Positions 22,370 through 64,000 are shown, counted from the first letter of the stretch. The stretch is DNA of 64,000 nucleotides from a virus (IMGVR_UViG_3300027808_000017:1-64000); one strand, 5' to 3'. Made by a program: numbers and translations. The notes: generated from the sequence alone by a model not told the origin.

Positions 22370-23054
22370 ATTCTATTCGTTTAGGGTAATAAGGATTTCG
22401 GCCCGCACACGGGTTATTAAGGTAGTTGATATTGTCTAAGACAGTATCAACTATTTTTCCATGTGTGCCAAATACCCAGTGAGATACTTTGTTTTCAGTA
22501 TCATATTCTAATGCATCAGTTAGTGGTCCGGCATCATGCATATCAGGTTCTTCACCATAATATAATTTTTTAGTTGGTACAGAACTAGAAACTACCATAA
22601 TATGTTCTACTTCTGAATGGACCTGTAATCTGTGTATAGTACTGCATAGATATGAAACATCCTCATATCCAGCAACAATTAATTCTATTTCAGCCATTTT
22701 ATTTCTAGGCTTATAATTTCCATACCATCCATTAGTGGCTACGATTGCTATCTCATTTAGCACCACTACATTATCATGTAAGAATATTACATTCTTTAAT
22801 GACGCACAAATTTCTCCAATTTCTTTGATACGTTTTTCTCTAATAATTACAGTAGAGTGTTCTAACGCACCATCAATAAAAAAGACACCCTGATAGCAAT
22901 TACTCAGGGTGTCTAATACTGTTTGTAGCATTGCTAAATCATTACTGACATTACCCGCAACAATACAATATAAACTTGTAGGTTTATCTTCCCAGATAAA
23001 GGTGTCATCTACTGATAAATTCAAATCACTAATTACATCAAATCCAAGTATCAT
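22347..23054 (-). CDS. putative calcineurin-like metallophosphoesterase
   Basis: N-terminal D-x-SDLNL, later GN/GTHGK motifs; 235 aa. Confidence 0.4.
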   Translation of the reverse strand: MILGFDVISDLNLSVDDTFIWEDKPTSLYCIVAGNVSNDLAMLQTVLDTLSNCYQGVFFIDGALEHSTVIIREKRIKEIGEICASLKNVIFLHDNVVVLNEIAIVATNGWYGNYKPRNKMAEIELIVAGYEDVSYLCSTIHRLQVHSEVEHIMVVSSSVPTKKLYYGEEPDMHDAGPLTDALEYDTENKVSHWVFGTHGKIVDTVLDNINYLNNPCAGRNPYYPKRIEFKSRPQF

Positions 23055-23115
23055 GTTTTCAACAGTTAATATGGAAATAGGACTACTGCCCTATTTCGCA
23101 ATAAAGCAGTATATA

Positions 23116-23403
23116 TTACGCTTTTGGTTTAGCTTTAGTTGTTTTAGAGGCTACTTTTTTAACGGCAGCAACTGCATCTTTAACATCAACTTTGCCGTCT
23201 TCATTGACATCTAATGCTTTTTTAACACGGGTGGTAGTCTTTTTAGCAACTTCCTTAACAACCGCTACTTCAACTTTGACTTCAGCAACGGCTTCTTTGA
23301 CAACTTCTTCAACCTTAGCAATTGCTTCTGGTTCAGATTTAGCCAAATAATTCCATAATGAGTAAACAGCAATCACTGCAACGACAACGATAATAATTTC
23401 CAT
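23116..23403 (-). CDS. membrane-anchored Ala/Val/Lys-rich repeat protein
   Basis: N-terminal TM MEIIIVVVAVIAVY; internal repeats VKEAVAEVKVEV / VKDAVAAVKKVASKTTKAKPKA. Confidence 0.5.
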   Translation of the reverse strand: MEIIIVVVAVIAVYSLWNYLAKSEPEAIAKVEEVVKEAVAEVKVEVAVVKEVAKKTTTRVKKALDVNEDGKVDVKDAVAAVKKVASKTTKAKPKA

Positions 23404-23434
23404 AGTAAAATCTCCTTGAACTAATATTTATGAC

Positions 23435-23944
23435 TTGAGGTTCCAAAGCAGATTTTTTCATAAATACTGTATGTTCAAGTCCTTGTCATTGCGAGAGTTG
23501 ATGGATCTACCCTTGCCCAAAATCACCGCGCAAAAAAGACTACTATTTAGACCGGATTTAGAGGATGTGGAACATGTCTATGATTTGTTAAATGAGCATG
23601 TTTTTGATAATATTTTAGTTAAGCCTAATATTAAATTGGGCACATGCCGAGACTATTGGGGAATGTGTTATGGGGAGGACAATCCCTATAATAGCGGAAC
23701 TTATTGCAGAATCAAACTAAGTGACAAATGGTATTCTGCTCAATGGATGGTGACAATGTTATCGCATGAAATGAGTCATCAGTATCAATGGGATGTTTAC
23801 AGTCATGGTCGTAAGACTAGAGTTATGAGCCATGGACCTAGTTTCTACAGATATCAATTAAAGATGCGGGAACACAATATTTCATTGAAAACATACTATT
23901 CTACTAGACAATGGTTTAATAAACAAGATTTGTTTAAAGCGTGA
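23435..23944 (+). CDS. SprT-like zinc metallopeptidase
   Basis: HEMSHQYQW...H motif in SprT-like context; 169 aa (true start may be Met 23471). Confidence 0.55.
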   Translation: MRFQSRFFHKYCMFKSLSLRELMDLPLPKITAQKRLLFRPDLEDVEHVYDLLNEHVFDNILVKPNIKLGTCRDYWGMCYGEDNPYNSGTYCRIKLSDKWYSAQWMVTMLSHEMSHQYQWDVYSHGRKTRVMSHGPSFYRYQLKMREHNISLKTYYSTRQWFNKQDLFKA

Positions 23945-23963
23945 AAGAGATAAATACATTACT

Positions 23964-25457
23964 ATGAGAGCAATTGAATTTTTAAAAGAATCCCAAGGTG
24001 GTATATTCCGCCGTGCCCAAGAGGTTGACCAAGGTGCGGAAATCAAGTTTAAAAACGCGGAAACAAACCAAGAAATTAAACTACTGTCAGCAGAAGTATT
24101 TCCTCAAACTGGACAATACCAAACATATGAAGAATTAGACCAAGCAGTTACTGATTTTTGTACTATGTTTGAAGTTCCACCGGAGAACGTTCAGTATGCA
24201 GGTAAACCAGATAAATCACGTGCCGCAATGGTAAGTATTTGGACGGATTTAACATCAGGTGAACCAATGGCGTTTGTTAAACTTGCTACAAAACGTAGTG
24301 AAGGTGCTTCACCTATTATGCAGAGTAATGCTGATTTTAAGAATGCGTTTGGTTATGGAGATGTAGGTAAGACAGCACAACGTCAAACATTACAATTAAA
24401 ACCAAAAGACGTATTAGCATTTGATGAATGGTTAAATCCACAAGGTGTTATACGCAGTGTTACTAGCAGATTGAAAACTAGAAGTGACCTAGACGAAAAC
24501 CTGAAGCAAGGATTAGTACAGCTTGTAACTAATGTTGCCCAAGGTGTCAGTGAGCCTGTGCCGGGTATGGCACAATATTTAACAACGTTAGAAGTTGATT
24601 ACGGTGAGGTACCTGCCCCTATTGCGTTAATTACAGGTAATTTTGTAGGAGGAGACTATCTGCAAGCCGAAAAAGGATTATTAGGTCCATTAGGTTTAAA
24701 ATGGAGCGATTTATCAAAAATATTGTATCCCAAGGCCGGGGGCGAAAAGATTTATGATAGTTACATTTATATTGATGAAGAAACCAAACTTAAAGTAAGT
24801 TCAAAAGATAAAAAAGGCGGCGCAGCCGCTAGTATTACTGGATTAATTGATGAAATTAACAAAACACCAGAAAAATTTCAAAGTGTATTACTTAATAAAA
24901 AATTCGGCTCTTTACTTAATATATGTAGGACAATTGCTAGCGCACCAAATACATATCAAGGAAGTGCAAAAAAGAGTAGCAAAAGTATAAATGGCCCTTT
25001 AATTTTAGCTGTAAATACTTTTAAATTTATTGACGACAATGATGCTAGAACAATTGTAGGGTTGATGAACTCCCCAAATAATAAAATGATGCCAGAACAA
25101 GCATACAAAAAAAATGTCATTGGTCCTAATTTATGGAAGATAATTTCAGTTAAAGGTGCCAATTATAAGGACCCGGGATATAATTTAGGTTATCATGTAA
25201 TGGCATGTGTTGCAAAAAATATTGCTAATATATGTAATAGCGATCCAAATACTGATAAATTTTTTAGGTCTATTTTGGAAAGATCCAACATGGTACAAGT
25301 TAAAACTACAGTTAAAAAATCCGGTGACGGGGCGGCATTTACTAATTTTGTTGTAATGTATCCTCCGGTCTTCGATGGCAAAATGACTATGCATGCGGAT
25401 AACAATTATATGGCGACACGAAAGCCAATCGCACCATTAAGTTTCAAAATGCCTTAA
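23964..25457 (+). CDS. hypothetical protein (497 aa)
   Basis: N-terminus MRAIEFLKES resembles N-terminus of 863-aa protein at 46123. Confidence 0.5.
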   Translation: MRAIEFLKESQGGIFRRAQEVDQGAEIKFKNAETNQEIKLLSAEVFPQTGQYQTYEELDQAVTDFCTMFEVPPENVQYAGKPDKSRAAMVSIWTDLTSGEPMAFVKLATKRSEGASPIMQSNADFKNAFGYGDVGKTAQRQTLQLKPKDVLAFDEWLNPQGVIRSVTSRLKTRSDLDENLKQGLVQLVTNVAQGVSEPVPGMAQYLTTLEVDYGEVPAPIALITGNFVGGDYLQAEKGLLGPLGLKWSDLSKILYPKAGGEKIYDSYIYIDEETKLKVSSKDKKGGAAASITGLIDEINKTPEKFQSVLLNKKFGSLLNICRTIASAPNTYQGSAKKSSKSINGPLILAVNTFKFIDDNDARTIVGLMNSPNNKMMPEQAYKKNVIGPNLWKIISVKGANYKDPGYNLGYHVMACVAKNIANICNSDPNTDKFFRSILERSNMVQVKTTVKKSGDGAAFTNFVVMYPPVFDGKMTMHADNNYMATRKPIAPLSFKMP

Positions 25458-25519
25458 CCAAAACTCTTTTAATTTGTTTTACAACGTGTTATACTTGTAA
25501 AACATTTTAAAGGAAGTTT

Positions 25520-26107
25520 ATGAGTCTAGTCCCAATCGTCATTGAACAAACAAGCAAAGGTGAGCGTAGTTATGATATCTACAGCCGTCTATTGCGTGAC
25601 CGTGTAATTTTACTTGAGGGTGAAGTACATGACCAAATGGCAAATCTTATTGTTGCCCAATTGCTATTCCTAGAATCAGAGGGTGACAAGGATATTTCAA
25701 TGTATATCAATAGTCCCGGCGGTAGTGTGACAGCAGGTATGGCAATCTATGATGCTATGCAATTCGTTAAGCCTGATATTCATACAATTGTAATGGGTCA
25801 GGCATGTTCTATGGGTAGTCTACTCGCACAATCAGGTGCACCCGGTAAACGTTTTATGTTGCCCAATGCAAGGCACATGATTCATCAACCTTCAGGTGGT
25901 GCAAGAGGTCAAGCAACTGATATGCTGATTCAGGTAAATGAAATACTTGAAATGAAAAAGAACCTAACAGGAATCTACACTAAGCACAATTCAAAAGGTA
26001 AAACTTTTGATGTACTCCAAGCTGATATGGAACGTGATAATTTTATGAGTGCTCAACAAGCATTTGACTATGGACTAGTAGACGAAATAGTTACAAAGCG
26101 AGGTTAA
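25520..26107 (+). CDS. clpP: ATP-dependent Clp protease proteolytic subunit ClpP
   Basis: [27 protein letters not shown] (Ser), HQP...GQATD (His/Asp) catalytic triad context; 195 aa. Confidence 0.9.
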
Positions 26108-33751: not shown

Positions 33752-34009
33752 ATGAACGCATTTGACCATATGGTAACTATTCTATCCGCTGAGGCGTATA
33801 AAGATAATGATTTTACACCTATTAGTAAAGATGAGTATGCTAAATTTTGCAAAGAGTATATTTTTGAAAAACTAAAAGAGATACGATTTGGTACAGCCTT
33901 TCAAAAAAGATTTGGCGTAAGAGATAGAGTACTAAGTATATTTAGCGAACAGAAAGATGCCATGGATCATATTGAGAGATATTATATAGGGGAAAGTAAT
34001 GAGTGGTGA
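33752..34009 (+). CDS. hypothetical protein
   Basis: internal Met MNAFDHM of track ORF 33686-34009. Confidence 0.4.
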   Translation: MNAFDHMVTILSAEAYKDNDFTPISKDEYAKFCKEYIFEKLKEIRFGTAFQKRFGVRDRVLSIFSEQKDAMDHIERYYIGESNEW

Positions 34010-34799
34010 AATAGAAAATATACGCAAGAGAGGAATTGTAGTAGAAACCGCAGTTGATGCTAATAGGATTTTAGGTTTAATTAATAAATTAAAACCAATA
34101 CAAACTCAATATGAATTAATGCGTGTAGGTCACGACAGAGAAGGGGGCTATTTAATTCCAGATGACATTGTTGGGATAGCAACTTGTTTTTCTGCTTGTT
34201 CCTCTATAGATAGTTCAGTTGCATTTGAACAAGATTTGCATGAATCATTTGGTATTAATTCGCATCTAGTAAATTTTTCTATGGAAGAAGTACCTGGATA
34301 TATTACACCATTGTCATTCATTCCAAAATTTTTAGGTCCAACTAATAATAATACGGATATAACATTAGATTCTTGGGTCAAAGAAACAGTAGAATACGAA
34401 TATTGTGGAGTGCATCAATTAATGCTTAAATTAGATTGTGAAGGTAAGGAATATGGTGCTATTCTTTCCTCCTCTGAGGAAATTCTTAAACAATTTAGAA
34501 TTATAGTCTTAAAATTAACTGATGTTGATAAATGGGGGCATCCGTCTTTCTTTAAAATTGTCGAAGATTTTACCAACAAACTATTACAACATTTTAATGT
34601 AGTACATATTCATCCAGACAATAAAGGAATCATCAAAAATATTAATGGGATAGATTTACCAGAAACAATAGAGATTACCTTTCTTTCTAAAAAAAGATGT
34701 AAGGTATTGGGATATGTAAATTCATTGCCAGATGAATTAGATAAACCATGCAATCCGGATTTAGTTGATATAGCGTTACCTGATATTTGGTATAAGTAA
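33999..34799 (+). CDS. hypothetical protein, tandem paralog A
   Basis: shares GGYL(I/V)PDD, ESFGINSHL, DSWVK, KWGHPSFF, LLQHFxVVHxHP, LPDIWYK with next ORF. Confidence 0.5.
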   Translation: MSGEIENIRKRGIVVETAVDANRILGLINKLKPIQTQYELMRVGHDREGGYLIPDDIVGIATCFSACSSIDSSVAFEQDLHESFGINSHLVNFSMEEVPGYITPLSFIPKFLGPTNNNTDITLDSWVKETVEYEYCGVHQLMLKLDCEGKEYGAILSSSEEILKQFRIIVLKLTDVDKWGHPSFFKIVEDFTNKLLQHFNVVHIHPDNKGIIKNINGIDLPETIEITFLSKKRCKVLGYVNSLPDELDKPCNPDLVDIALPDIWYK

Positions 34800-34822: not shown

Positions 34823-35587
34823 ATGCCAAACGAAACTATTGTTGAACTTGCTGTAAGTGCGGATAGGCTTGTCAATTTGATTAGTAAATTAAAGCCAGTA
34901 AAAACACAAACTGAACTAATGAGAGTTGGATCTACCCAAGATGGTGGATATTTAGTTCCGGATGATGTCGGGGGGATAATTGCATGTTTCTCTCCTGGAG
35001 TAGAACATACATCAACATTTGAATTAGATTTACTTGAATCTTTTGGAATCAATTCTCATTTAGCAGATTATTCAGTAGACGGTCCTCCTGCATATTTTAA
35101 CCCATTATCGTTTACTAAAAAATTCTTGGGCGCAATAAACAATGATGTATATATGACAATGGATTCATGGGTAAAGAGTACACCTGAATACGAATCTATT
35201 GGTGATTTTCTACTTCAAATGGATATTGAATTTGGTGAGTACAGTACATTGCTTGCAACTTCGGATGAGATTCTTAAAAGATTTAGAATTATAGTTATTG
35301 AAGTACATCACATTGACAAATGGGGACACCCCTCTTTCTTTAACATAGCAGAATCATTCTTTGATAAACTGTTACAACATTTTCATGTAGTACATGCACA
35401 TCCTAATAATTATGGCACTGTTATTAATGTTAATGGAGTAGAGTTACCGCAAACTATTGAATTTACTTTACTTGCAAAAGACAGATGTAATATATCAGGG
35501 TTTGTTGATACTTTTCCAGATGAATTAGATAGTCCGTGCTGCCCTGATAAAAATGAACTAGTGTTACCTGATATTTGGTATAAATGA
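34823..35587 (+). CDS. hypothetical protein, tandem paralog B
   Basis: collinear homolog of 33999-34799. Confidence 0.5.
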   Translation: MPNETIVELAVSADRLVNLISKLKPVKTQTELMRVGSTQDGGYLVPDDVGGIIACFSPGVEHTSTFELDLLESFGINSHLADYSVDGPPAYFNPLSFTKKFLGAINNDVYMTMDSWVKSTPEYESIGDFLLQMDIEFGEYSTLLATSDEILKRFRIIVIEVHHIDKWGHPSFFNIAESFFDKLLQHFHVVHAHPNNYGTVINVNGVELPQTIEFTLLAKDRCNISGFVDTFPDELDSPCCPDKNELVLPDIWYK

Positions 35588-43664: not shown

Positions 43665-43880
43665 ATGGCAAAAGAAGAGGGTATTAAAATGGACGGCAAG
43701 GTAGTAGATGTACTACCTAATGCCGTTTTTAAAGTAGTAATGGAAGCTGGTCCTATCATAACAGGATACATCAGCGGCCGCATGCGTAAGCATGATATTA
43801 AAATTTTATTGGGTGATACTGTTGAAGTTGAATTCAGCCCATATGATTTGACTAAAGGTCGTATAACCCGTAGACGGTAA
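43665..43880 (+). CDS. infA: translation initiation factor IF-1
   Basis: 71 aa S1-like OB fold: [63 protein letters not shown] aligns end-to-end with bacterial IF-1. Confidence 0.85.
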
Positions 43881-45574: not shown

Positions 45575-46126
45575 ATGTACGATATTGTAGAGAAAATCAG
45601 TGAATCCAGAACAAAAAAATTAGAGATAGTCAAGCTATCCTATGACCTTTCCGACCTCAATCCAGTATTAAGCAAAAAGACAATGGATTATCACTATGGG
45701 GATTTAGCCCATGGATATGCATCCCGATACAACAAGGGTGAGGGTGACAAAGATTTCAATTATGCGGGTGCTTTCCTGCACAACATTTATTTTCCGCAGT
45801 TTCGCAAAATACAAGAAGATAACACTCCTAACGGTCCTGTACTAGGAATCATTAAGCGTAAGTACGATTGGTGGAGAGATTTTAAAGAACAATTCAAACA
45901 AGAAGCCATGAAGATACAGGGTAGTGGTTGGATTTATATGAGTTATACAGGTGAGATAAAGACTATTGTTAACCACGAGGTTCGTGAAGATATTCTTATT
46001 CTAGTTGACTGGTGGGAACATGCTTGGGCCTTAGACTATCAAGCAGATAAAAAAGGTTACTTAGAAAACATTTGGAAGATAATGAACTGGAGTCACATCA
46101 ATACCCGCTGGGGGAAGAATTTATGA
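45575..46126 (+). CDS. Fe/Mn superoxide dismutase homolog
   Basis: SKKTMDYHYGDLAHGY ~ QTMEIHHTKHHQTY; GSGWIYM ~ GSGWAWL; DWWEHAWALDYQ...IWKIMNW ~ DVWEHAYYLKFQ...FWNVVNW. Confidence 0.6.
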   Translation: MYDIVEKISESRTKKLEIVKLSYDLSDLNPVLSKKTMDYHYGDLAHGYASRYNKGEGDKDFNYAGAFLHNIYFPQFRKIQEDNTPNGPVLGIIKRKYDWWRDFKEQFKQEAMKIQGSGWIYMSYTGEIKTIVNHEVREDILILVDWWEHAWALDYQADKKGYLENIWKIMNWSHINTRWGKNL

Positions 46127-48663
46127 GAGCCACTGAATTTATAACTGAATCTAAAACTGTAGAGTACGAAGGCTTAACACTAAAAATAAGTAAACAAGGT
46201 CATGAGTTAATAGTCAATGCCCTTGATGATTGGGGTAATAAAGTATTAGGCCATGTAAGATTCAACATAGGTGATGGTAAAGAATTAGACCCACAAGACC
46301 TTAAAGTTGATGATAAGTATCAAGGTCAAGGCATCGCTAAAGTCATGTATGATTATGTTAAAAGTCTTGGCTATACGATTGCTAGAAGTTATGACCAAAC
46401 TGATGCCGGTGCAGGCTTTTGGAACAAGCATCGCGGAGAAGATGTTCGTATTTGGGAAGCCCGAGCCGGTGGAAAACTGAATAGAAAATACGATTCGGCC
46501 CGTCGAGAAGTTAAAAGCATTTTGAACAGCCCATACATAAACTTAAAAGAGTGGGGTCTGAGCATGACTATGTTGCCCAAACTAGGTATTAATCCTGGCA
46601 AGGGCATCAGCGAGGATACTCCCAAGGGCATTTACTTTTATCCATTAGCGTATGTCAATGATTGGGTCAATGGTTCTGAGGAGTTACCATGGGGTAATGA
46701 TTTCCCATACATACAAGTGTTTCAATACGATACTAGTCATCGAATGACACCGGACACAAAAGTTGATCCTGAGAGATTAAAGGCAACACTGCGTCAATAT
46801 TGTCCTGAAGAAGTTATCAATCAATTAATAGAAGAAGGCACATACAACAATGATCCTTATTGGTTTATTTATAATTGCCTAATTCAAGTAAGCAAGAATG
46901 ATGAATCTACTATTATTCGTTGGAATAAAATATTAAGAGACTTGGGCTTTACTAGTGTTTATGACTATGGCAAGGGCTGGATAGCACACAACGAACCAGA
47001 GCAAGGTATTATCTTAGATCCAAGAATCATCAAGCAGGTTCAAACTTTTAACAACTACACACGTAAGCAAGGTGTAGCGGAGGGCAAGGTCAAACTCTAC
47101 ACAGATCCTGGCTATTTTGGGGCAGAAGTAGATGACACAGGGTTTGATGGCCTACCAGTAGTCAACATACCCACTAATCAACTTGTGGGATTTGAACCAG
47201 ATTCAAAGATGAATCAACCAAAAAGCCGAGCCAATGTTGAAAAAATAGTAGCAGGATTGAAACAAGGTGACAAGTTGCCACCATTGTTGGTTCGCAAATA
47301 TAAAAATGGATATCAAGTATTAGATGGTCATCATAGATTCTGGGCCTATAAATTGTCGGGTACAAAATCTATTCCATCACGAATTGTACCTGATAAAGAT
47401 ATAGAAGAAATCAGTAAACAAGGTGTGGTAGAAAGTGTCAATGACTATCTATGGCACGGGTCTAGGTATAGAAATGAGGTACTAGTACCGCGTCAGGCTA
47501 ATGATACCGGTGGTAAAGAAGAAAGTAATAAAAATGCTATATATGCTACTCCTAGTGCAAAAGTTGCTATAGCAATGGGGCTAACTACTCCTGGATCAGA
47601 TACCGGAATGTTTCCAAACGATCCACAAATGGTACTATTCAAAGGCGGTATTAGAAAAGGTGAAATGGTTTACTTGCACAAGGTACCTAAAGATTTATTC
47701 ATAAAACACAACAGCAGAGAATGGTATAGTAAACCCGATGTAAAAGAAATTACACCTATAGAAGTAGTAACAGTTCCTGTAGACAAATGGTTAAGTTTGA
47801 TTAGAACTGCTACCCCTAAAGATTTAGAATTACAGAAAAAAAACATGAAGAAGCAAGGTGTGGCGGAAGGCTTAGATGATAATAGAGTTAGTTTCAAGGT
47901 ACAAAAAGGTAAAAACAAATTTGCAACTACTTTAAGTGTTGGTGGCGACCCAGTAGGAGTATACCAATATGATGCTGATACAGGTCGTAGCATAGCCGAG
48001 ATTTATCCAGAATTCAAAGGCAAAGGATTAGGTAAATTATTGGTTTTACATGCTATCTATACCGCGGCTAATTTGGGATTAGATTTCCAAGAAGATGAAT
48101 CAAGAACCTCAGAGTATGATAATGTATTAGATAGTTTGAGTAGTAACGGTTATATTGTAGATGACGATGGATATTGGTATGTAACCGGTCAAGGTGAACA
48201 ATATCTACAACAATCATTAAAACAAGGTGTGGCGGAAGGTGATGACAAATTAAAAGATCCAATAGCAAATGCAATATTAGATTTCTATCAACATGCCGGA
48301 CATATTAGCAAAGACCCAATTGATAACTATGTTGGTACTGCAAAAGAATTGCTAAGTCAGGTCAGTGATCCTACAGTCAAATCAAAGATACTAGATATTT
48401 TCAAACAAGCAAAACAAAGCCCATATGTTCAAGGTGGAGTTGTTACAACTATTGGTGCATTACTTGCCGGTGGAGTATTAAGTTCAGCACAGAAAATGGG
48501 ATTGAGTCCAGCGCAAACTAACTTAGTGTTACAAGCGATACTAAATACAGTTATACCTACTGTGGTGTCCAGGATCAATGGAAAGAGTTGGAGTGACACA
48601 GTTAAGTACACACTAGCAAGTGCAGGCATTGGTACTGGCATTGCTGGTATGATGGAGGAATAA
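46123..48663 (+). CDS. large multidomain protein: GNAT-like / ParB-like nuclease domain / second GNAT-like, with KQGVAEG linker repeats and hydrophobic C-terminus
   Basis: GNAT motif A-like YQGQGIAKVMYDYV and KGKGLGKLLVLHAIY; ParB/Srx motif GYQVLDGHHRFWAYKL; start at MRATEFITES (GGGGGAAG RBS). Confidence 0.5.
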   Translation: MRATEFITESKTVEYEGLTLKISKQGHELIVNALDDWGNKVLGHVRFNIGDGKELDPQDLKVDDKYQGQGIAKVMYDYVKSLGYTIARSYDQTDAGAGFWNKHRGEDVRIWEARAGGKLNRKYDSARREVKSILNSPYINLKEWGLSMTMLPKLGINPGKGISEDTPKGIYFYPLAYVNDWVNGSEELPWGNDFPYIQVFQYDTSHRMTPDTKVDPERLKATLRQYCPEEVINQLIEEGTYNNDPYWFIYNCLIQVSKNDESTIIRWNKILRDLGFTSVYDYGKGWIAHNEPEQGIILDPRIIKQVQTFNNYTRKQGVAEGKVKLYTDPGYFGAEVDDTGFDGLPVVNIPTNQLVGFEPDSKMNQPKSRANVEKIVAGLKQGDKLPPLLVRKYKNGYQVLDGHHRFWAYKLSGTKSIPSRIVPDKDIEEISKQGVVESVNDYLWHGSRYRNEVLVPRQANDTGGKEESNKNAIYATPSAKVAIAMGLTTPGSDTGMFPNDPQMVLFKGGIRKGEMVYLHKVPKDLFIKHNSREWYSKPDVKEITPIEVVTVPVDKWLSLIRTATPKDLELQKKNMKKQGVAEGLDDNRVSFKVQKGKNKFATTLSVGGDPVGVYQYDADTGRSIAEIYPEFKGKGLGKLLVLHAIYTAANLGLDFQEDESRTSEYDNVLDSLSSNGYIVDDDGYWYVTGQGEQYLQQSLKQGVAEGDDKLKDPIANAILDFYQHAGHISKDPIDNYVGTAKELLSQVSDPTVKSKILDIFKQAKQSPYVQGGVVTTIGALLAGGVLSSAQKMGLSPAQTNLVLQAILNTVIPTVVSRINGKSWSDTVKYTLASAGIGTGIAGMMEE
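47065..48240 (+). repeat. three copies of a ~20-nt intragenic direct repeat encoding KQGVAEG
   Basis: AAGCAAGGTGTAGCGGAGGGC at 47065-47085, AAGCAAGGTGTGGCGGAAGG at 47851-47870, AACAAGGTGTGGCGGAAGGT at 48221-48240. Confidence 0.7.
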
Positions 48664-48986
48664 TGGCATATTCAGAAAAAGTAATTGACCAAATAGTAAA
48701 AGAACACAATGTTGTGTTGTTTATGAAGGGGACCGCACAATTTCCCATGTGTGGATTTTCGGGCAAAGCTATACAACTGCTGAATGAATGCGATTCAGAC
48801 TTTGATGTATTCACTGTAAATGTGCTTGATGATAATGACATTCGACAAAGTATCAAAGAATACAGTAATTGGCCGACCATTCCTCAATTGTATGTCAATG
48901 GTGAGTTCATCGGCGGATCTGACATCTTGATCGAAATGCACGAATCAGGTGAATTACAACAATTATTAAAAAACAAGGAGTCATAA
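48663..48986 (+). CDS. monothiol glutaredoxin (Grx4/GrxD type)
   Basis: FMKGTAQFPMCGFSGKA: CGFS active site; 107 aa. Confidence 0.8.
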   Translation: MAYSEKVIDQIVKEHNVVLFMKGTAQFPMCGFSGKAIQLLNECDSDFDVFTVNVLDDNDIRQSIKEYSNWPTIPQLYVNGEFIGGSDILIEMHESGELQQLLKNKES

Positions 48987-48989
48987 TTT

Positions 48990-49018
48990 ATGGCATATTC
49001 AGAAAAAGTAATTGACCA
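48990..49018 (+). repeat. 29-bp exact direct repeat of the first 29 nt of the grx CDS (copy at 48663-48691)
   Basis: ATGGCATATTCAGAAAAAGTAATTGACCA present at both positions; second copy opens a 16-codon remnant ORF. Confidence 0.85.
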
Positions 49019-49078
49019 CTACGCAGTTATGATAGAATAATAATGCACACAACCGGGTGCACCTAGATAAATACTTGT

Positions 49079-49675
49079 ATGAAAAACAAATATGGTCTAA
49101 GTAAGGTGTGCTTTTTTTGTGAATCTAGTTTTATAACTAAACCTAGATTTATAGATTACTGTTCACAAAAATGTAAAAATCCTCTTAACAGGGGAGAATA
49201 TGATCCCTGGAATAAAGGTATCAAACTTACAGATGAACAAAAAGCAAAACAAAATACAGACGGGCTCAAAAAAGGATGGGGATGGAACAAGGGCGGAACT
49301 AATGAAGCGGCACGCCAGCGTATGCTAGTCAATAATCCAAATAAAGATGGAAGGTTAAACAATCTTAGACCAAAAAATCCAATTACAGAACCCCTTAAAA
49401 TATATCGTAGTAAGGTTAGGTACCATACATATAGAACTCTTAAAGAAATGAGAGCAAACGGTGAGTGGGTTCCAAAAACTGGTAAGTATAAAGACAGTTG
49501 GCAAATTGACCATATTATTCCACACAAACAAGGTTTTGAATTAAGAATAGATCCTTCAGTACTTGGTGGAAAAAAGAATATACAATTTATTAAAGGCGAA
49601 GAAAACAGAAAAAAATGGGATAGTTATCAACCCATTGAAATAGTAGAGTCTATTACAGGAGGTAATTATGTATAG
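49079..49675 (+). CDS. putative HNH endonuclease
   Basis: N-terminal Cys cluster CFFC...C..C; WQIDHIIPHKQG...N...N consistent with HNH core. Confidence 0.45.
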   Translation: MKNKYGLSKVCFFCESSFITKPRFIDYCSQKCKNPLNRGEYDPWNKGIKLTDEQKAKQNTDGLKKGWGWNKGGTNEAARQRMLVNNPNKDGRLNNLRPKNPITEPLKIYRSKVRYHTYRTLKEMRANGEWVPKTGKYKDSWQIDHIIPHKQGFELRIDPSVLGGKKNIQFIKGEENRKKWDSYQPIEIVESITGGNYV

Positions 49676-50051
49676 TGCAAAAGTGTTAGATCATTATGAG
49701 AACCCTAGGAACGCAGGAAGTTTTTCCAAAGATGAAGAAAATATAGGTACGGGATTAGTAGGAGCCCCGGCGTGTGGTGACCTAATGAAACTACAAATAA
49801 GAGTAGAGAATGGCATTATTACAGATGCACGTTTTAAAACGTATGGATGTGGATCGGCAATTGCAAGTAGTTCTCTAGTCACAGAGTGGGTTAAAGGCAA
49901 GACATTAGACGAGGCAGCAACTATTAAAAATTCAGAAATTGCTGAGGAACTTGCATTACCCCCAGTTAAGATACATTGTAGTATCTTAGCAGAAGATGCT
50001 ATCAAAGCCGCAGTAGAAGATTATAAAAAGAAACATGATATCATTATCTGA
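49668..50051 (+). CDS. iscU: Fe-S cluster assembly scaffold IscU
   Basis: YENPRNAGSF, GAPACGD, YGCGSAIASS, LPPVKIHCS (three conserved Cys + LPPVK). Confidence 0.85.
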   Translation: MYSAKVLDHYENPRNAGSFSKDEENIGTGLVGAPACGDLMKLQIRVENGIITDARFKTYGCGSAIASSSLVTEWVKGKTLDEAATIKNSEIAEELALPPVKIHCSILAEDAIKAAVEDYKKKHDIII

Positions 50052-50358
50052 CAAAGCAAAAACAAAAATAGAAACTCTATTAAAGAGTTCTCAACATGTT
50101 GGGATTCGTATAGGGGTGAAAACAACTGGTTGTAGTGGATTAGCATATGTATTAGAATATGTAAAAGAATATGTTAGTGATCCTACTACTATCAATTACG
50201 CTCAACCTAACTTTTGTGTATTAGTAGATAAAAAGCATAATGTATATTTAGAAGGTCTTACGATGGATTATGTCCGTAATGGACTAAATGAGGGGTTTGA
50301 GTTTAGCAACCCGAATGAACGTGACCGCTGTGGATGCGGAGAAAGTTTTAGAGTATGA
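50035..50358 (+). CDS. A-type Fe-S carrier (IscA/HesB family)
   Basis: GCSGLAY ... CGCGESF C-terminal signature. Confidence 0.7.
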
Positions 50359-50678
50359 TAACAATTACAGAATCAGCAAGTATCAAAATAGCAGATATTA
50401 TTGCGGAAGAAAACAACCCTGACTTAAAGTTACGTATGTTTGTCCAGGGCGGGGGATGCTCAGGATTCAGCTATGGATTTACGTTAGAGGAGATAAAAAA
50501 TGAAGATGACTTTGAATTTGAAGCTGGTGCCACAAGTGTCCTGGTCGATGCAATGTCGGCTCAATATCTTCAAGGGGCTGAGGTTGATTACGTAGAAGAC
50601 TTAATGGGGGCAGAATTCAAGATAAAGAACCCCACAGCTACTAGTACTTGCGGATGCGGGAGTTCCTTTTCGGTTTAA
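50355..50678 (+). CDS. A-type Fe-S carrier (IscA/ErpA family)
   Basis: [21 protein letters not shown] ... CGCGSSFSV. Confidence 0.8.
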
Positions 50679-61875: not shown

Positions 61876-62103
61876 TTATCTCCATGCATTAACTAAACCA
61901 ATTACACAAGTAACGATTGCTACCATGTTCACTACTAGTTGCGGGCGATTCTTAACACGAATAGTCCACGCCATAAATGCTAATGTGCCTAATGTAAATG
62001 CCACAATGTTGTAGGGATAAACACTAGGTCCAATTGCATTGCACACGTGTCCTGCAATAATGAATACTGCACCAGCCCATTGTAAGATATCGTTTACTTT
62101 CAT
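61876..62103 (-). CDS. 2-TM membrane protein
   Basis: 75 aa. Confidence 0.45.
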   Translation of the reverse strand: MKVNDILQWAGAVFIIAGHVCNAIGPSVYPYNIVAFTLGTLAFMAWTIRVKNRPQLVVNMVAIVTCVIGLVNAWR

Positions 62104-62303
62104 TCTTCAACTCCGAAAACTCTGAAATGTTTTCCAATAATTACACAGCCTCTAAATTCACCATTATCCGCTAGAATCTTGATACATTCCATCACAATCA
62201 ACTCGGCAAACTTTTGACATTCTGGCATGTCCCAGTGTCCAATGCCAAACATATCCGTTGTGTATCCAGCCTGTTCAGCAAGTTCTCGAATTCGTTCGTT
62301 CAT
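62100..62303 (-). CDS. small protein, MNxRIKEL paralog family (copy 4)
   Basis: MNERIRELAEQAGYTTD...FAELIVMECIKIL. Confidence 0.5.
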   Translation of the reverse strand: MNERIRELAEQAGYTTDMFGIGHWDMPECQKFAELIVMECIKILADNGEFRGCVIIGKHFRVFGVEE

Positions 62304-62641
62304 TACTTTACTCCAAATGTGTTCAATGCTGGTTGCAGTGTGTTAATCAATTCAGTCTCGCGGGCATGAGCAGGACGCTTGCCTCTCACAATCTCCACGA
62401 CACCAAATACAAATCGCTCGGCACCTTGTTCACGCAAGGCACGTGACAAACCCCAATCTTTGTTCTCAGTCATAGCACGTTGCATGTGTTTTTGCATACG
62501 ACGGCGTAATGTGCGAAATACATTACCCTTGAATGAAACAGCAGTCAGACCAATGTAATACTCAAGTGTTACAGTGTCTTGAATGTAGTAGATGACTTGA
62601 TTGCGGTCTGTTCTACGTTTGCGGTTGATTTTCGAGTTCAT
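62303..62641 (-). CDS. putative GIY-YIG nuclease
   Basis: VIYYIQDTVTLEYYIGLT...RTLRRRMQKH...ARETELINTLQPALN fits GIY-x10-YIG...R...H...E...N spacing. Confidence 0.45.
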   Translation of the reverse strand: MNSKINRKRRTDRNQVIYYIQDTVTLEYYIGLTAVSFKGNVFRTLRRRMQKHMQRAMTENKDWGLSRALREQGAERFVFGVVEIVRGKRPAHARETELINTLQPALNTFGVK

Positions 62642-62647
62642 GTAAGT

Positions 62648-62676
62648 ATTATATACCCAATGTGATTTATTGTCAA
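62648..62676 (-). promoter_or_regulatory. sigma70-type early promoter (family member, minus strand); leaderless
   Basis: revcomp TTGACAATAAATCACATTGGGTA TATAAT then ACTTAC ATG. Confidence 0.6.
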
Positions 62677-62699
62677 CTATTGAGTATACTACTTTCAGT

Positions 62700-62927
62700 T
62701 TACTTTACAAACCCAGCAAACATTTCAATGTCATACCAAGCTACTGCTTTAGTATTCATTTCATAAACAAGCACAGGGAATGCTTGAGTATTAACTTTAT
62801 CAAAGTTAACAAGTTTCTCAAAATTAGATTGACACAGTTCTTCATCAGACTGGTCCTCAAAAGTCACAAATGCTTTGTTAGTGTTCACAAACTCATCAAT
62901 GTTGTAAGACATAATAGGCCCTTTCAA
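62700..62927 (-). CDS. hypothetical early protein
   Basis: 75 aa; RBS AAAGGG. Confidence 0.5.
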   Translation of the reverse strand: MKGPIMSYNIDEFVNTNKAFVTFEDQSDEELCQSNFEKLVNFDKVNTQAFPVLVYEMNTKAVAWYDIEMFAGFVK

Positions 62928-62942
62928 ATGTTTAAGATGCTA

Positions 62943-62971
62943 TTGTATACCCAATTTGATTTATTGTCAAC
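62943..62971 (-). promoter_or_regulatory. sigma70-type early promoter (family member, minus strand)
   Basis: revcomp TTGACAATAAATCAAATTGGGTA TACAAT. Confidence 0.6.
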
Positions 62972-63407
62972 TTGTTGTTGTAAGGATATCCAAAGCCTGT
63001 TGTAATACTTTTGACTGACGATGTTGTACATCCAACTCCCATGGTAGGTTGGTGTATTCTTCATGTGTCATTTCTTCAGGTGGTTTATTTGTATAGGGTA
63101 TGCCATGCCAATAACACATGCCATTAGGTTTAATCTTAAGCATACCTAAATACTTTTGACTAACATGTATCAGTTCATGTACAAGAATTTTTAGTTGTGA
63201 TTCTAGTGATAGGTTGATGTTCAATCCAATACGATTGACTCGGTTGATATCAATACCACCATAGACATTCTCCTCTAAGGGGCACAAGCATACCTCTACA
63301 GTGTCCGGCAACTCTATGATTTGAGATACTGCAATGGCTAACGAGGTCAATAAAGCCTCGTTATCTTTTTCATAGTTATTATTTTTATAGTAAAACTTAA
63401 CTTCCAT
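62967..63407 (-). CDS. HExxH-motif protein (putative zinc metallopeptidase-like)
   Basis: LVHELIHVSQKY; 146 aa. Confidence 0.4.
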   Translation of the reverse strand: MEVKFYYKNNNYEKDNEALLTSLAIAVSQIIELPDTVEVCLCPLEENVYGGIDINRVNRIGLNINLSLESQLKILVHELIHVSQKYLGMLKIKPNGMCYWHGIPYTNKPPEEMTHEEYTNLPWELDVQHRQSKVLQQALDILTTTS

Positions 63408-64000
63408 TATGCATTATGAATTTTGTCCATTGCCTTTTTAACTATCTTCTCACGTTCTTGTTTAGTTCTAGCACCTAGCACTGTTATATTATATAATTGG
63501 TTATTTGTACTTACAAGCATTGTGATACAGAATCCTGCCGCATTTGTAAACCCTGTCTTTATCGTAACTATTCCTTCTTTTCCAAAATAATGACTAGTTG
63601 GATTACTAATAATTGATTTGTTCCTTGGTTGTTTGATTCGCTTTTTAGATTTTTTACTCTTTTTAGATTTATTAGGTACCGCTGATTTAGTAACCACTCT
63701 TTGTGTTTGTGCGGCTTGTTGTACAATAGGAAAATTACTAACTGCTTTAACTAGCATTACAATATCATTAACAGTACTGTAATTCATAGCACTCAATCCA
63801 GTGGGTTCGACAAATCCGGTATGCATCATTCCAAGTTCTTTTGAATGAGTATTCATTTGACGAATAAAATGTGGTTGTCCACCGGGATAATTTTGCGATA
63901 AAGTAACTGCGGCTAAATTATCACTGCTTACTAATGACATGTTAACTAGTTCTTGTCTTGTCAGAATCATGCCCTTCCTTAGTTTAGTGTGATTGATTTT
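63407..64000 (-). CDS. D-alanyl-D-alanine carboxypeptidase (peptidase S11/PBP5-like), 5'-truncated by window edge
   Basis: SxN motif VSSDN, KTG motif IKTGFTNAAGFC; frame open to window end so SxxK motif presumably lies beyond 64000. Confidence 0.6.
   Translation of the reverse strand, partial: KINHTKLRKGMILTRQELVNMSLVSSDNLAAVTLSQNYPGGQPHFIRQMNTHSKELGMMHTGFVEPTGLSAMNYSTVNDIVMLVKAVSNFPIVQQAAQTQRVVTKSAVPNKSKKSKKSKKRIKQPRNKSIISNPTSHYFGKEGIVTIKTGFTNAAGFCITMLVSTNNQLYNITVLGARTKQEREKIVKKAMDKIHNA

What the first reader, a model, noticed from the sequence alone, without database searches (positions are those of the whole stretch)
48663..50678. Fe-S cluster biogenesis module (monothiol Grx, IscU, two A-type carriers) without IscS, HscAB or Fdx
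CGFS glutaredoxin, canonical IscU (three Cys plus LPPVK) and two IscA/ErpA-type carriers (CGCG C-termini) are contiguous. No cysteine desulfurase or HscA/HscB is present, so the module would draw on host IscS while boosting scaffold and carrier capacity. It may support Fe-S-dependent phage or host enzymes during infection.
Basis: partly seen in the sequence, partly recalled or inferred. Interest (0 to 1): 0.55.

Follow-up and report, generated by a model that had tools for sequence, protein, structure and literature searches.

The report
Phage iron-sulfur assembly genes, endonuclease-invaded
A large uncultured phage carries four intact bacterial-type genes for building and delivering iron-sulfur clusters but lacks the sulfur-donor and chaperone genes; this kind of viral helper gene set is already known, and the new detail is a selfish DNA-cutting gene inserted into the scaffold gene iscU.

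Summary
The four genes are real. HMMs and residue-level alignments confirm a Grx4-type CGFS glutaredoxin (48663-48986), IscU (49668-50051), an IscA/SufA-like carrier (50035-50358) and ErpA (50355-50678). All cluster ligands are present and all four genes are under purifying selection.

They are not contiguous. Between grx4 and iscU lie an orphan copy of the first 11 iscU codons and a 198-aa HNH homing-endonuclease gene (49079-49675).

No IscS, IscR, HscB, HscA or Fdx was found in the window, in about 28 kb of flanking DNA from the same phage, or around IscU in about 150 related viral loci. All 80 closest cellular loci carry the full iscRSUA-hscBA-fdx operon. The window does encode an Hsp70, but it scores as DnaK, not HscA.

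The same phage genome encodes candidate cluster clients just outside the window: a QueE-like radical-SAM enzyme and a second radical-SAM enzyme.

Viral iscU, A-type-carrier and grx genes were already described in marine viromes, so the module is a new member of a known kind.

The endonuclease element is the unexpected part. In relatives it comes with 6-9-nt stop-containing insertions in iscU that look like short ribosomal hops.

The parts
48663..48986 (+). grx4: Grx4-family monothiol (CGFS) glutaredoxin, 107 aa. Its start overlaps the stop of the upstream 863-aa gene (TAATG). Its first 29 nt are a copy of the iscU 5' end.
   Evidence: TIGR00365 148 bits against cutoff 117; Pfam Glutaredoxin 3e-19; alignment to GLRX5 2wul and E. 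coli Grx4 1yka; dN/dS 0.11 against L065; other viral Grx4 proteins lack the MAYSEKV prefix.
48663..48691 (+). Left copy of a perfect 29-nt direct repeat (ATGGCATATTCAGAAAAAGTAATTGACCA). It equals the first 29 nt of iscU in the closest relative, L003.
   Evidence: the repeat finder family D1, 100% identity, spacing 327; blastn 29/29 to L003 1417-1445; alignment A1.
48990..49022 (+). Orphan iscU 5' fragment (codons 1-11, MAYSEKVIDHY), left behind upstream of the endonuclease element. Its first 29 nt are the right copy of the direct repeat.
   Evidence: Sequence read directly; identical to the L003 iscU start.
49046..49078 (+). Conserved leader of the endonuclease element (CACACAACCGGGTGCACCTAGATAAATACTTGT). 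It is present just before the ORF198 start codon in relatives that have unrelated upstream DNA.
   Evidence: Upstream sequences of about 40 distinct loci; coordinates checked.
49079..49675 (+). ORF198: free-standing HNH-type homing endonuclease. It has an N-terminal C4 zinc ribbon, two WNKG repeats and a DH...N...N motif at residues 144-176. It overlaps the iscU start by 8 nt.
49668..50051 (+). iscU: Fe-S cluster scaffold, 127 aa, uninterrupted. It is a mosaic: codons 1-40 (49668-49787) arrived with the endonuclease element, and codons 41-127 are native.
   Evidence: TIGR01999 217 bits against 192; 79% identity to E. coli IscU. Against L003, codons 1-40 are 66% identical at nucleotide level and codons 41-127 are 95% identical. 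dN/dS 0.02 for codons 41-127.
49761..49790 (+). Inferred endonuclease recognition region in iscU (codons 32-41, GAPACGDLMK). The window carries the variant GAC CTA (Asp-Leu) instead of the consensus GAY GTN (Asp-Val).
   Evidence: Contingency table: none of 58 loci with ORF198 keep the consensus motif, against 87 of 89 viral loci without it and 80 of 80 cellular loci. Coordinates checked.
50035..50358 (+). A-type carrier of the IscA/SufA (ATC-II) type, 107 aa. It overlaps iscU by 17 nt.
   Evidence: TIGR00049 100.6 against 58.8; best equivalog IscA 111.8, below its 150.6 cutoff; alignment to E. coli IscA 1s98 with three Cys; dN/dS 0.18.
50355..50678 (+). erpA: A-type carrier of the ErpA (ATC-I) type, 107 aa. 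It overlaps the preceding gene by 4 nt (ATGA).
   Evidence: NF010147 155 bits against 117; alignment to HI1723 2apn with three Cys; dN/dS 0.06.
45575..46126 (+). Fe/Mn superoxide dismutase (context). It lies in the same + strand gene block. In relatives its homologue sits directly beside iscU.
   Evidence: Pfam Sod_Fe_C 1e-19 and Sod_Fe_N; SOD next to IscU or ORF198 in L046, L049, L051, L063, L080 and L214-L216.

Best explanation
This is a phage auxiliary operon for iron-sulfur cluster supply, and it depends on the host for the chemistry it does not encode.

Shown:
- The phage encodes a complete-looking scaffold (IscU), a CGFS glutaredoxin, and one carrier of each of the two classes that act in series in E. 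coli (an IscA-type and ErpA).
- All four are co-oriented with overlapping or closely spaced reading frames.
- All four keep their ligands and are under purifying selection.
- There is no cysteine desulfurase, ferredoxin, HscB/HscA or IscR in 92 kb of the genome.

Inferred mechanism:
- Phage IscU docks on host IscS and receives sulfur. It is 79% identical to E. coli IscU and 80-85% identical to Burkholderiales IscU.
- The [2Fe-2S] cluster is released with host HscBA, through the retained LPPVK motif.
- Clusters pass through Grx4 and the IscA-type carrier to ErpA, the aerobic route to [4Fe-4S] targets.
- This raises the flux of clusters to the phage's own radical-SAM enzymes (a QueE-like enzyme of a FolE-QueD-QueE deazaguanine set, and a second CxxxCxxC enzyme) and to host enzymes, in an oxic habitat where clusters are easily damaged. 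The phage also carries SOD, a rubrerythrin-like protein and rubredoxin.

The mobile element: superimposed on the operon is a selfish HNH homing-endonuclease gene together with a replacement copy of iscU codons 1-40. It inserted after iscU codon 11. The Val-to-Leu variant (GAC CTA) it brought at the inferred recognition site would protect this genome from its own nuclease.
For: Gene identity and ligands.

Selection: dN/dS 0.02-0.18.

Same population seen repeatedly: the exact IscU protein is indexed in 40 blocks of the assembly collection, and all six places shown carry the same gene order.

Missing partners:
- phmmer and tblastn with IscR, IscS, HscB, HscA, Fdx and a J domain find only DnaK.
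- Pfam lists of called genes show none.
- None of about 150 related viral loci has them.
- All 80 closest cellular loci do, wherever the locus reaches far enough.

Clients and stress genes on contigs 100% identical to the window ends.

Carrier relay in E. coli (IscU to IscA/SufA to ErpA under aerobiosis): PMC2682760.

Precedent for viral iscU, ATC and grx genes with radical-SAM clients: PMC5332604.

Endonuclease element:
- Positional association.
- Site contingency: 0/58 against 87/89 and 80/80.
- Sharp identity breakpoint at codon 40/41.
- Orphan target fragment, conserved leader, HNH motif and fold.
- Truncated or remnant copies in L198 and L250-L258.
Against: - No activity, expression or interaction data exist; the whole mechanism is inferred from homology.
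- Only about 92 kb of a genome that is probably much larger was seen, so IscS, Fdx or HscB could be encoded elsewhere.
- The host is unknown. Burkholderiales is suggested only by IscU similarity, and IscU is so conserved that this is weak evidence.
- The QueE-like protein scores below all QueE cutoffs and lacks a canonical CxxxCxxC spacing.
- The IscA-like protein fails the IscA equivalog cutoff.
- Many of the related loci are redundant samples of a few phage populations, so the contingency counts overstate the number of independent events.
Confidence: 0.68

Rival explanations
1. Sulfur-flux hijack. The phage overproduces IscU mainly to occupy host IscS. That diverts sulfur away from TusA and ThiI, which changes tRNA thiolation and therefore decoding and frameshifting during infection. 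Under this reading Fe-S supply is not the main purpose.
For: In E. coli, IscU and TusA compete for IscS, and the IscU level changes lambda gpG:gpGT frameshifting and phage yield (PMC3296357). The phage keeps IscU but no IscS. It also invests heavily in translation: S21, IF-1 and at least 25 tRNA genes.
Against: Occupying IscS would need neither two carriers nor a CGFS glutaredoxin, yet IscA-type carriers accompany IscU in most viral loci and all are under purifying selection. All cluster ligands and LPPVK are kept, which a mere IscS binder would not require. In lambda, more IscU lowers phage yield.
Confidence: 0.08
2. Repair, salvage or iron buffering rather than new synthesis. The module collects iron or clusters released from oxidised or ClpXP-degraded host proteins. 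It re-delivers them, or supplies iron to non-Fe-S iron enzymes such as di-iron ribonucleotide reductase, rubrerythrin and rubredoxin. This would need little or no IscS.
For: SOD lies in the same gene block and is directly adjacent to iscU in several relatives. Rubrerythrin-like and rubredoxin genes lie nearby. ClpX, ClpP and ClpS are in the window. In other viral lineages iscU-iscA sits 1-3 kb from proteins of NrdA and NrdB size with NrdA/NrdB-like sequence (assigned by eye, no HMM run) and from a classical glutaredoxin. Recycling was proposed for marine viral genomes (PMC5332604).
Against: IscU is a de novo assembly scaffold, and its IscS- and HscA-facing features are conserved. No ribonucleotide reductase was found in the 92 kb seen for this phage. 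Iron-chaperone roles for A-type carriers are debated. Nothing here separates salvage from synthesis.
Confidence: 0.17
3. Not a phage feature: a piece of bacterial chromosome, an assembly chimera, or decaying hitch-hiked host genes with no role.
For: The proteins are 79-85% identical to cellular IscU. Some GenBank 'phage' records that match are really bacterial contigs.
Against: The same gene order recurs with exact protein matches in independent ENA and JGI assemblies and in IMG/VR. The neighbours are phage-like, and the window has G+C 0.37 against 0.45-0.71 in the cellular loci. The gene order differs from all 80 cellular loci. dN/dS is far below 1.
Confidence: 0.02

Closest known systems
Bacterial ISC operon iscR-iscS-iscU-iscA-hscB-hscA-fdx (E. 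coli; Burkholderiales versions fetched here)
   Same: IscU is 79% identical to E. coli IscU and 80-85% identical to Burkholderiales IscU. An IscA-type carrier follows iscU directly, as in the operon. Ligands and LPPVK are conserved.
   Different: IscR, IscS, HscB, HscA and Fdx are absent. Grx4 and ErpA, which are unlinked to isc in all 80 cellular loci, are fused into the same gene string. A homing endonuclease sits inside.
Viral Fe-S cluster auxiliary genes of marine environmental viral genomes and viromes (Nishimura et al. 2017, PMC5332604; HMO-2011-type phages, PMC9038755; PHROG 8429 'NifU-like Fe-S cluster assembly protein')
   Same: Phage-borne iscU and/or A-type carrier genes of proteobacterial type. 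They occur without a desulfurase, in genomes that also carry grx, ClpP and radical-SAM genes.
   Different: Here all four genes (Grx4, IscU, ATC-II, ATC-I) form one string. Among about 250 sampled loci that combination was seen only in this phage population. The close relatives come from JGI and ENA metagenomes whose habitat I could not verify. The endonuclease invasion of iscU is not mentioned in those papers.
E. coli A-type carrier relay (Vinella et al. 2009, PMC2682760)
   Same: One ATC-II-like and one ATC-I (ErpA) carrier, the pair that acts in series from IscU to apo-targets under aerobiosis.
   Different: The phage genes are adjacent and overlap by 4 nt. In E. coli and in the 80 cellular loci, erpA is elsewhere. 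The relay in the phage context is untested.
Phage T4 MobA / gene 60 mobile element: an HNH homing endonuclease, a replacement copy of target sequence, and a translational bypass that blocks self-cleavage (bioRxiv 10.1101/2022.08.31.505936)
   Same: An HNH gene lies just upstream of a replacement copy of the conserved target-gene segment. The endonuclease ORF overlaps the start of the downstream coding sequence by 8 nt. The target site is altered in element-bearing genomes. In relatives a stop-containing insertion is flanked by two Gly codons.
   Different: The target is iscU, not topoisomerase. ORF198 has no detectable sequence family in Pfam. The window's allele is protected by a substitution, not a gap. 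The gaps in relatives are 6-9 nt rather than 50 nt (20 nt in the Aeromonas clade), and no take-off stem-loop was examined. Cleavage and bypass are untested.
Phage C48C1 (OQ984149, Kyanoviridae, 156 kb), 'NifU-like Fe-S cluster assembly protein'
   Same: It is the only annotated phage genome record in the GenBank phage collection whose IscU is at least 74% identical to the window's.
   Different: It has a lone iscU with no carrier or Grx4 beside it, and no DNA-level similarity to the window.

Membership tests
IscU scaffold (NCBIfam TIGR01999) | Score above the curated equivalog cutoff | tested here: met
   216.9 bits against cutoff 192.4.
IscU scaffold (NCBIfam TIGR01999) | Three cluster-ligand Cys, Asp39, His105 and the LPPVK HscA-binding motif (E. 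coli numbering) | tested here: met
   Alignment to E. coli IscU 2l4x shows APACGD, YGCGS and LPPVKIHCS all identical.
IscU scaffold (NCBIfam TIGR01999) | Assembles a [2Fe-2S] cluster on IscS | not testable with these tools
   Needs biochemistry or complementation.
ErpA (NCBIfam NF010147; ATC-I) | Score above the equivalog cutoff and three conserved Cys (GCSG, CGCG) | tested here: met
   155 bits against 117; alignment to HI1723.
IscA (NCBIfam TIGR02011; ATC-II) | Score above the IscA equivalog cutoff | tested here: not met
   111.8 bits against 150.6, and NF007049 109.8 against 181. It passes only the A-type-carrier subfamily TIGR00049, 100.6 against 58.8. I therefore file it as 'IscA/SufA-like A-type carrier', not as IscA.
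IscA (NCBIfam TIGR02011; ATC-II) | Three conserved Cys; gene immediately 3' of iscU | tested here: met
   Alignment to E. coli IscA 1s98. It overlaps iscU by 17 nt, the same order as in the 80 cellular loci.
Grx4-family monothiol glutaredoxin (TIGR00365) | Score above cutoff; CGFS active site; glutathione-binding WP(T)IPQ and GG.D motifs | tested here: met
   148 bits against 117.1; alignment to GLRX5. The enterobacterial model NF008086 is not met (109 against 205).
Complete ISC machinery (iscRSUA-hscBA-fdx) | Cysteine desulfurase IscS encoded with the scaffold | tested here: not met
   No hit in the window or about 28 kb of flanks, and none in about 150 viral loci. It is present in all 80 cellular loci.
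Complete ISC machinery (iscRSUA-hscBA-fdx) | Dedicated chaperone pair HscB/HscA and ferredoxin Fdx | tested here: not met
   No HscB, J-domain or Fdx hit. The only Hsp70 is a DnaK: NF001413 988 against 648, with HscA models below cutoff.
Viral auxiliary Fe-S genes (as in PMC5332604) | Located in a viral genome | tested here: met
   100% matches in IMG/VR contigs; PHROG hits; a repeated promoter-like family; a block of 25 tRNA genes in the flank; phage-type ATPase relatives. No capsid or terminase gene was seen in the 92 kb examined.
HNH homing endonuclease (free-standing) | HNH (beta-beta-alpha-metal) catalytic motif and fold | tested here: inconclusive
HNH homing endonuclease (free-standing) | Sporadic presence at one fixed genomic site beside a conserved target gene, with target-site variants in carriers and co-converted flanks | tested here: met
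   In all 72 relatives it lies 5' of iscU wherever the locus reaches that far. It is absent from the closest relative, L003. Site contingency is 0/58 against 87/89. There is a breakpoint at codon 40/41 and an orphan target fragment.
HNH homing endonuclease (free-standing) | Cleaves or nicks the element-free allele | not testable with these tools
   Needs purified protein and substrates.
Endonuclease plus translational-bypass cassette (T4 MobA / gene 60 type) | Coding gap in the target gene, with matched take-off and landing codons and a stop after take-off | tested here: not met
   The window's iscU is uninterrupted. In relatives (not the window), 29 distinct alleles with 15 insertion variants fit GGN, then stop, then 0-3 nt, then GGN-GAY. 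All but one variant has the stop.

The most novel reading that the evidence does not exclude
The 198-aa gene inside the module would define a previously undescribed family of iscU-specific mobile HNH endonuclease cassettes. These would work like the T4 MobA/gene 60 element: each carries its own copy of iscU codons 1-40 and protects its genome by rewriting the recognition site.

The window has the substitution form (Asp-Leu). At least 29 distinct relatives instead have a 6-, 7-, 8- or 9-nt insertion of the form GGN, stop, 0-3 nt, GGN, placed directly after the cluster-ligand Cys. Both halves of the gene stay under purifying selection across these alleles.

Only a short ribosomal hop from the first Gly codon to the second would restore the IscU sequence for all four insertion lengths. 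If that is right, these would be natural short-range translational bypass sites, repeatedly tied to a homing endonuclease.
Probability: 0.5. Interest if true: 0.78.

Novelty: new member of a known kind. Interest (0 to 1): 0.45.

Why it matters
As an Fe-S gene set the finding adds detail rather than a new idea. It shows a phage that has pulled together the scaffold, both carrier classes and a CGFS glutaredoxin from loci that are dispersed in cells. It left out every component that generates sulfide or consumes ATP. Radical-SAM clients and oxidative-stress genes sit in the same genome. That makes it a good candidate for testing which steps of Fe-S supply limit phage growth in oxic waters.

The more consequential point is the selfish element in iscU. 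It gives a natural series of alleles: sensitive, substituted, and interrupted. These could be used to map a new homing endonuclease's specificity. If the interrupted alleles are decoded by hopping, they would add many independent short natural examples of programmed bypass linked to a homing endonuclease. In the literature I could search, that link rests on the T4 gene 60 family.

Tried and rejected
- **Megablast of the module** against 50,697 phage records found nothing. Most tblastn 'phage' hits to IscU, ErpA and DnaK were mislabelled bacterial contigs, for example 'Acinetobacter phage MD-2021a' with a full isc operon. I used those only as cellular references.
- **The window's Hsp70 as a missing HscA.** Rejected: DnaK models pass and HscA models fail.
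- **Search for IscS, IscR, HscB, Fdx or a J domain** by phmmer, tblastn and motif scans found none. The only CxxxCxxC match in the window is a 51-aa antisense ORF, which I dismissed.
- **ORF198 as an IscU accessory factor** rather than a mobile endonuclease. Rejected for four reasons: it is absent from the closest relative; it occurs as truncated and remnant copies; it is tied to altered target sites; and it is bounded by a recombination breakpoint.
- **Interrupted iscU alleles in relatives:**
  - Sequencing error is rejected: 15 variants in many samples.
  - Pseudogenes are rejected: no other stops, and pN/pS is 0.18-0.26 with synonymous sites near saturation.
  - A single frameshift direction cannot explain lengths of 6, 7, 8 and 9 nt.
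  - A split gene re-initiated at the Met of DVM fails for alleles that read DVL with GTT or GTA at that position (L206, L212).
- **Foldseek against the PDB** gave no usable match for ORF198.
- **Walking further along the 70-kb IMG/VR contig** was abandoned.
- **Host assignment from IscU similarity** (Burkholderiales) is kept only as a weak lead.

Full report
**1. What is at 48663-50678**

Six-frame ORF listing shows five co-oriented genes, not four:
- 48663-48986 (107 aa)
- 49079-49675 (198 aa)
- 49668-50051 (127 aa)
- 50035-50358 (107 aa)
- 50355-50678 (107 aa)

Curated HMMs identify four of them.

| Gene | Model | Score vs cutoff |
|---|---|---|
| Grx4-family monothiol glutaredoxin | TIGR00365 | 148 vs 117 |
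| IscU | TIGR01999 | 217 vs 192 |
| A-type carrier, best match IscA | TIGR00049 (subfamily) | 100.6 vs 58.8 (passes) |
| same protein | TIGR02011 (IscA equivalog) | 111.8 vs 150.6 (fails) |
| ErpA | NF010147 | 155 vs 117 |

- IscU has APACGD, YGCGS and LPPVKIHCS, and is 97/123 identical to E. coli IscU.
- The glutaredoxin has CGFS, WPTIPQ and GGxD.
- Both carriers have GCSG plus the C-terminal CGCG.

The reading frames are tightly packed. The grx4 start overlaps the stop of the upstream 863-aa gene. The iscU and iscA-like genes overlap by 17 nt, and the iscA-like gene and erpA overlap by 4 nt. Against the closest relatives, dN/dS is 0.02 (IscU codons 41-127), 0.18 (IscA-like), 0.06 (ErpA) and 0.11 (Grx4).

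So the genes are real, intact and selected. The statement that they are contiguous is wrong.

**2. The genome around it**

The window has G+C of about 0.37 and is packed with small ORFs. It has no DNA-level match among 50,697 deposited phage records.

The exact IscU protein is indexed in 40 blocks of public assemblies. All six places shown have the same gene order, and 100% matches exist in IMG/VR.

Other genes in the window:
- ClpX, ribosomal protein S21, DnaK, IbpA, ClpS and ClpP at 17985-26107
- IF-1 at 43665-43880
- DNA ligase and a 5'-3' exonuclease
- Fe/Mn superoxide dismutase at 45575-46126

A family of at least 15 near-identical promoter-like elements (TTGACAATAAAT-N7-GGGTATATAAT) marks the small-gene regions. 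None lies in front of the module. The module belongs to a long + strand block that follows a perfect TTGACA-17-TATAAT match at 42958.

**3. What is missing, and how firmly**

With phmmer against all window ORFs and tblastn against the window plus flanks, the only hit is HscA against the window's Hsp70. That Hsp70 is a DnaK by curated models (988 bits against a 648 cutoff) and is below every HscA cutoff. Pfam lists for called genes across most of the window and both flanks show no Aminotran_5, HscB, DnaJ, Fer2 or frataxin family.

The comparison with relatives is the stronger test.
- Of the 80 best IscU-bearing IMG/VR loci (out of at least 593), none has IscS, IscR, HscB, HscA or Fdx within 10 kb. 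Most have an IscA-type gene next to iscU, and about 15 also have an ErpA-type gene.
- All 80 closest cellular loci are Burkholderiales and allies, with IscU 78-85% identical. They show iscR-iscS-iscU-iscA-hscB-hscA-fdx wherever the contig reaches. None has Grx4 or ErpA nearby.

The phage lineage has therefore assembled scaffold and carriers from loci that are dispersed in cells, and carries none of the sulfide-generating, electron-donating or ATP-consuming parts. The four-gene combination (Grx4, IscU, ATC-II, ATC-I) was seen only in this phage population among about 250 sampled loci.

**4. Clients**

The window holds none that I could recognise.

Contigs that are 100% identical to the window's ends extend the genome (L260 over window 1-4865; L262 over 61992-64000).
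- About 5-8 kb to the left lie GTP cyclohydrolase I FolE (322 bits against a 202 cutoff), a QueD/PTPS-family protein, and a 280-aa radical-SAM protein. The best hits of that last protein are QueE models, at E about 1e-15 but below cutoffs. Together these are the three enzymes of the 7-deazaguanine route.
- About 8-9 kb to the right lies a 322-aa radical-SAM protein with a canonical CTNACSYC motif. Nearer the window, about 4-5 kb out, lie a rubrerythrin-like protein and a 44-aa rubredoxin.
- Further right is a block of 25 tRNA genes.

Radical-SAM enzymes need [4Fe-4S] clusters. In E. coli the aerobic route to such targets runs from IscU through IscA/SufA to ErpA (PMC2682760). The phage encodes exactly that pair of carrier classes.

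SOD in the same gene block also fits. In nine related loci its homologue is directly adjacent to iscU. This points to a role in keeping clusters supplied under oxidative conditions.

**5.

ORF198 (49079-49675) has no Pfam or NCBIfam hit. It belongs to a family of 381 proteins of about 200 aa, some of which JGI labels McrA.

An alignment of 28 members shows three conserved features:
- an invariant C4 zinc ribbon
- two WNKG repeats
- D144-H145, N167 and N176

The genomic behaviour is much clearer.
- In all 72 IMG/VR relatives (51-100% identical), the gene lies immediately 5' of iscU wherever the locus reaches that far.
- It is absent from the window's closest relative, L003. There iscU follows the upstream gene directly.
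- It is preceded everywhere by a conserved leader of about 33 nt. Beyond that leader the DNA is unrelated, or consists of iscU 5' remnants of various lengths.
- In the window, the 33 nt at 48990-49022 are an orphan copy of iscU codons 1-11, identical to the L003 iscU start.
- Window and L003 iscU are 66% identical over codons 1-40 and 95% identical over codons 41-127.

The inserted unit is therefore leader, ORF198 and a replacement copy of iscU codons 1-40, at roughly 49023-49787.

The breakpoint falls exactly at the most conserved stretch of the gene, GAPACGDVM. I classified that stretch in every locus.

| Locus class | Consensus motif | Amino-acid substitution | 6-9-nt insertion |
|---|---|---|---|
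| Full-length ORF198 present (58 loci) | 0 | 22 | 36 |
| Viral, no ORF198 (89 loci) | 87 | 2 | 0 |
| Cellular (80 loci) | 80 | 0 | 0 |

The window is among the 22 substituted loci, with GAC CTA (Asp-Leu). Many loci are repeat samples of the same populations, so the number of independent events is smaller than these counts. Even so, there is no exception among ORF198-bearing loci.

Sporadic presence, a fixed site, altered target sites, a co-conversion tract and decayed copies together are the signature of a free-standing homing endonuclease that targets iscU. The decayed copies are a truncated ORF in L198 and 34-aa remnants in L250-L258. The layout parallels the T4 MobA element, where an HNH gene, a replacement stretch of the target gene and the gene 60 bypass move together, and the bypass blocks self-cleavage (bioRxiv 10.1101/2022.08.31.505936). 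I found no paper that links a homing endonuclease to a phage iscU.

**6. grx4 is also an insertion into the iscU 5' end**

A perfect 29-nt direct repeat (48663-48691 and 48990-49018) brackets grx4. The repeat is the first 29 nt of iscU. As a result, grx4 begins MAYSEKVID, the IscU N-terminus. Grx4 genes of other viral lineages begin differently and join the shared sequence only at IDQ.

L065 shows grx4-iscU without ORF198. L003 shows neither grx4 nor ORF198. Recombination between the repeats would delete grx4 precisely. The module is thus modular: the core is iscU plus an IscA-type carrier, with ErpA, Grx4, SOD and the endonuclease as variable additions.

**7. Interrupted alleles in relatives (not in the window)**

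There are 45 such loci, comprising 29 distinct alleles. In them the insertion sits between the Gly and Asp codons of ACG|D.
- It has 15 sequence variants, of 6, 7, 8 or 9 nt.
- In every variant but one, the first Gly codon is followed directly by TAA, TAG or TGA.
- All have a second Gly codon immediately before GAY.
- No allele has any other stop.
- Both halves keep all ligands. Pairwise pN/pS is 0.26 for the N part and 0.18 for the C part, with pS of 0.6-0.8.

Frameshifting in one direction cannot serve all four lengths. Re-initiation at the Met of DVM fails for alleles that read DVL with GTT or GTA. A hop of peptidyl-tRNA-Gly from the first GGN to the second restores the exact IscU sequence in every case. 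This is an inference from sequence alone and needs protein evidence.

**8. Mechanism and rivals**

The best-supported reading is a host-dependent booster of Fe-S cluster assembly and delivery, at about 0.68.

Two rivals cannot be excluded.
- The module may act mainly by occupying IscS and changing tRNA thiolation. In E. coli, IscU and TusA compete for IscS with effects on lambda (PMC3296357). The co-selected carriers and intact ligands argue against this.
- It may serve salvage or iron buffering rather than new synthesis. The links to SOD, rubrerythrin and ClpXP, and the putative ribonucleotide-reductase neighbours in other lineages, speak for this.

Contamination or decay is effectively excluded.

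**9. Novelty and verdict**

Viral iscU, A-type carrier and grx genes, and their co-occurrence with radical-SAM genes, are already published as auxiliary genes. The sources are PMC5332604, which cites Sharon 2011 and the Pacific Ocean Virome work, and PMC9038755. PHROGs already holds families for them.

The module is therefore a well-supported new member of a known kind, fuller than those described. The embedded iscU-specific endonuclease element, and the hop-like insertions in its relatives, are what a specialist would find surprising. They raise the score above what the Fe-S genes alone would deserve.

Noticed in passing
Related loci L197-L201, L204-L209, L212, L213, L218-L223, L226, L227, L229-L239, L241, L242, L245, L247, L250-L258 (iscU about 600-710 nt after the ORF198 start; e.g. 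L198 4596-4975): iscU is interrupted just after the ligand Cys by a 6-9-nt insertion of the form GGN, stop, 0-3 nt, GGN-GAY (15 variants, 29 distinct alleles). Both halves are under purifying selection. It reads as a short Gly-to-Gly ribosomal hop tied to the upstream HNH gene or its remnant, and resembles T4 gene 60/MobA in miniature.
   Followed up: partly
window 48663-48691 and 48990-49018: A perfect 29-nt direct repeat of the iscU 5' end brackets grx4, so Grx4 starts with the IscU N-terminus MAYSEKVID. This implies grx4 entered, and could leave, by recombination at the iscU start.
   Followed up: yes
window 17985-26107 and 43665-43880: A proteostasis and translation gene set: ClpX, ribosomal protein S21, DnaK (not HscA), IbpA-like small heat-shock protein, ClpS, an SprT-like protein and ClpP, plus IF-1 further on. 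DnaK homologues lie about 5 kb from iscU in several related viral contigs (L035, L042, L056, L058).
   Followed up: partly
L259/L260 1716-5638 (left of the window); L262 383-5368 and L264 736-7002 (right of the window): The same phage genome, just outside the window, carries FolE, QueD-like and QueE-like genes (the 7-deazaguanine pathway) and a second radical-SAM gene. It also carries a rubrerythrin-like protein, a rubredoxin and a block of 25 tRNA genes.
   Followed up: partly
window + strand 6785, 7141, 7433, 7874, 16318, 27553, 28038, 28556; - strand 54169, 54364, 56634, 57210, 57764, 62622, 62916 (each about 56-65 nt): At least 15 copies of a conserved promoter-like element (TTGACAATAAAT-N7-GGGTATATAAT). 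Many also share a downstream leader ending in AAAGGAG, always ahead of small-gene clusters. They are probably the phage's early promoters.
   Followed up: no
window 46072-48663: This 863-aa ORF has an N-terminal GNAT domain and a ParB_N domain. A linker-like motif KQGVAEG recurs three times, with a fourth variant KQGVVES. The C-terminus is hydrophobic. The L003 homologue has extra inserted and C-terminal segments. It looks like a multi-domain protein or polyprotein of unknown role.
   Followed up: no
window 34425-34724 and 35213-35512: A 300-nt direct repeat at 68% identity shows that the adjacent 266-aa and 254-aa genes (33999-34799, 34823-35587) are diverged tandem paralogues. Neither has a Pfam hit.
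   Followed up: no
GenBank records CAKLQH020000011.1 and CAKLQF020000009.1 ('Acinetobacter phage MD-2021a'); locus L002: These 'phage' records contain an ordinary bacterial iscR-iscS-iscU-iscA-hscB-hscA-fdx operon flanked by ppiD and hupB. They are bacterial chromosome contigs, and they inflate apparent phage hits for IscU, ErpA and DnaK.
   Followed up: yes
window 49012-49041: A promoter-like match (TTGACC-18-AATAAT) is formed partly by the orphan iscU fragment, just upstream of the endonuclease leader. The leader itself contains the palindrome GGTGCACC. These could control ORF198 expression.
   Followed up: no
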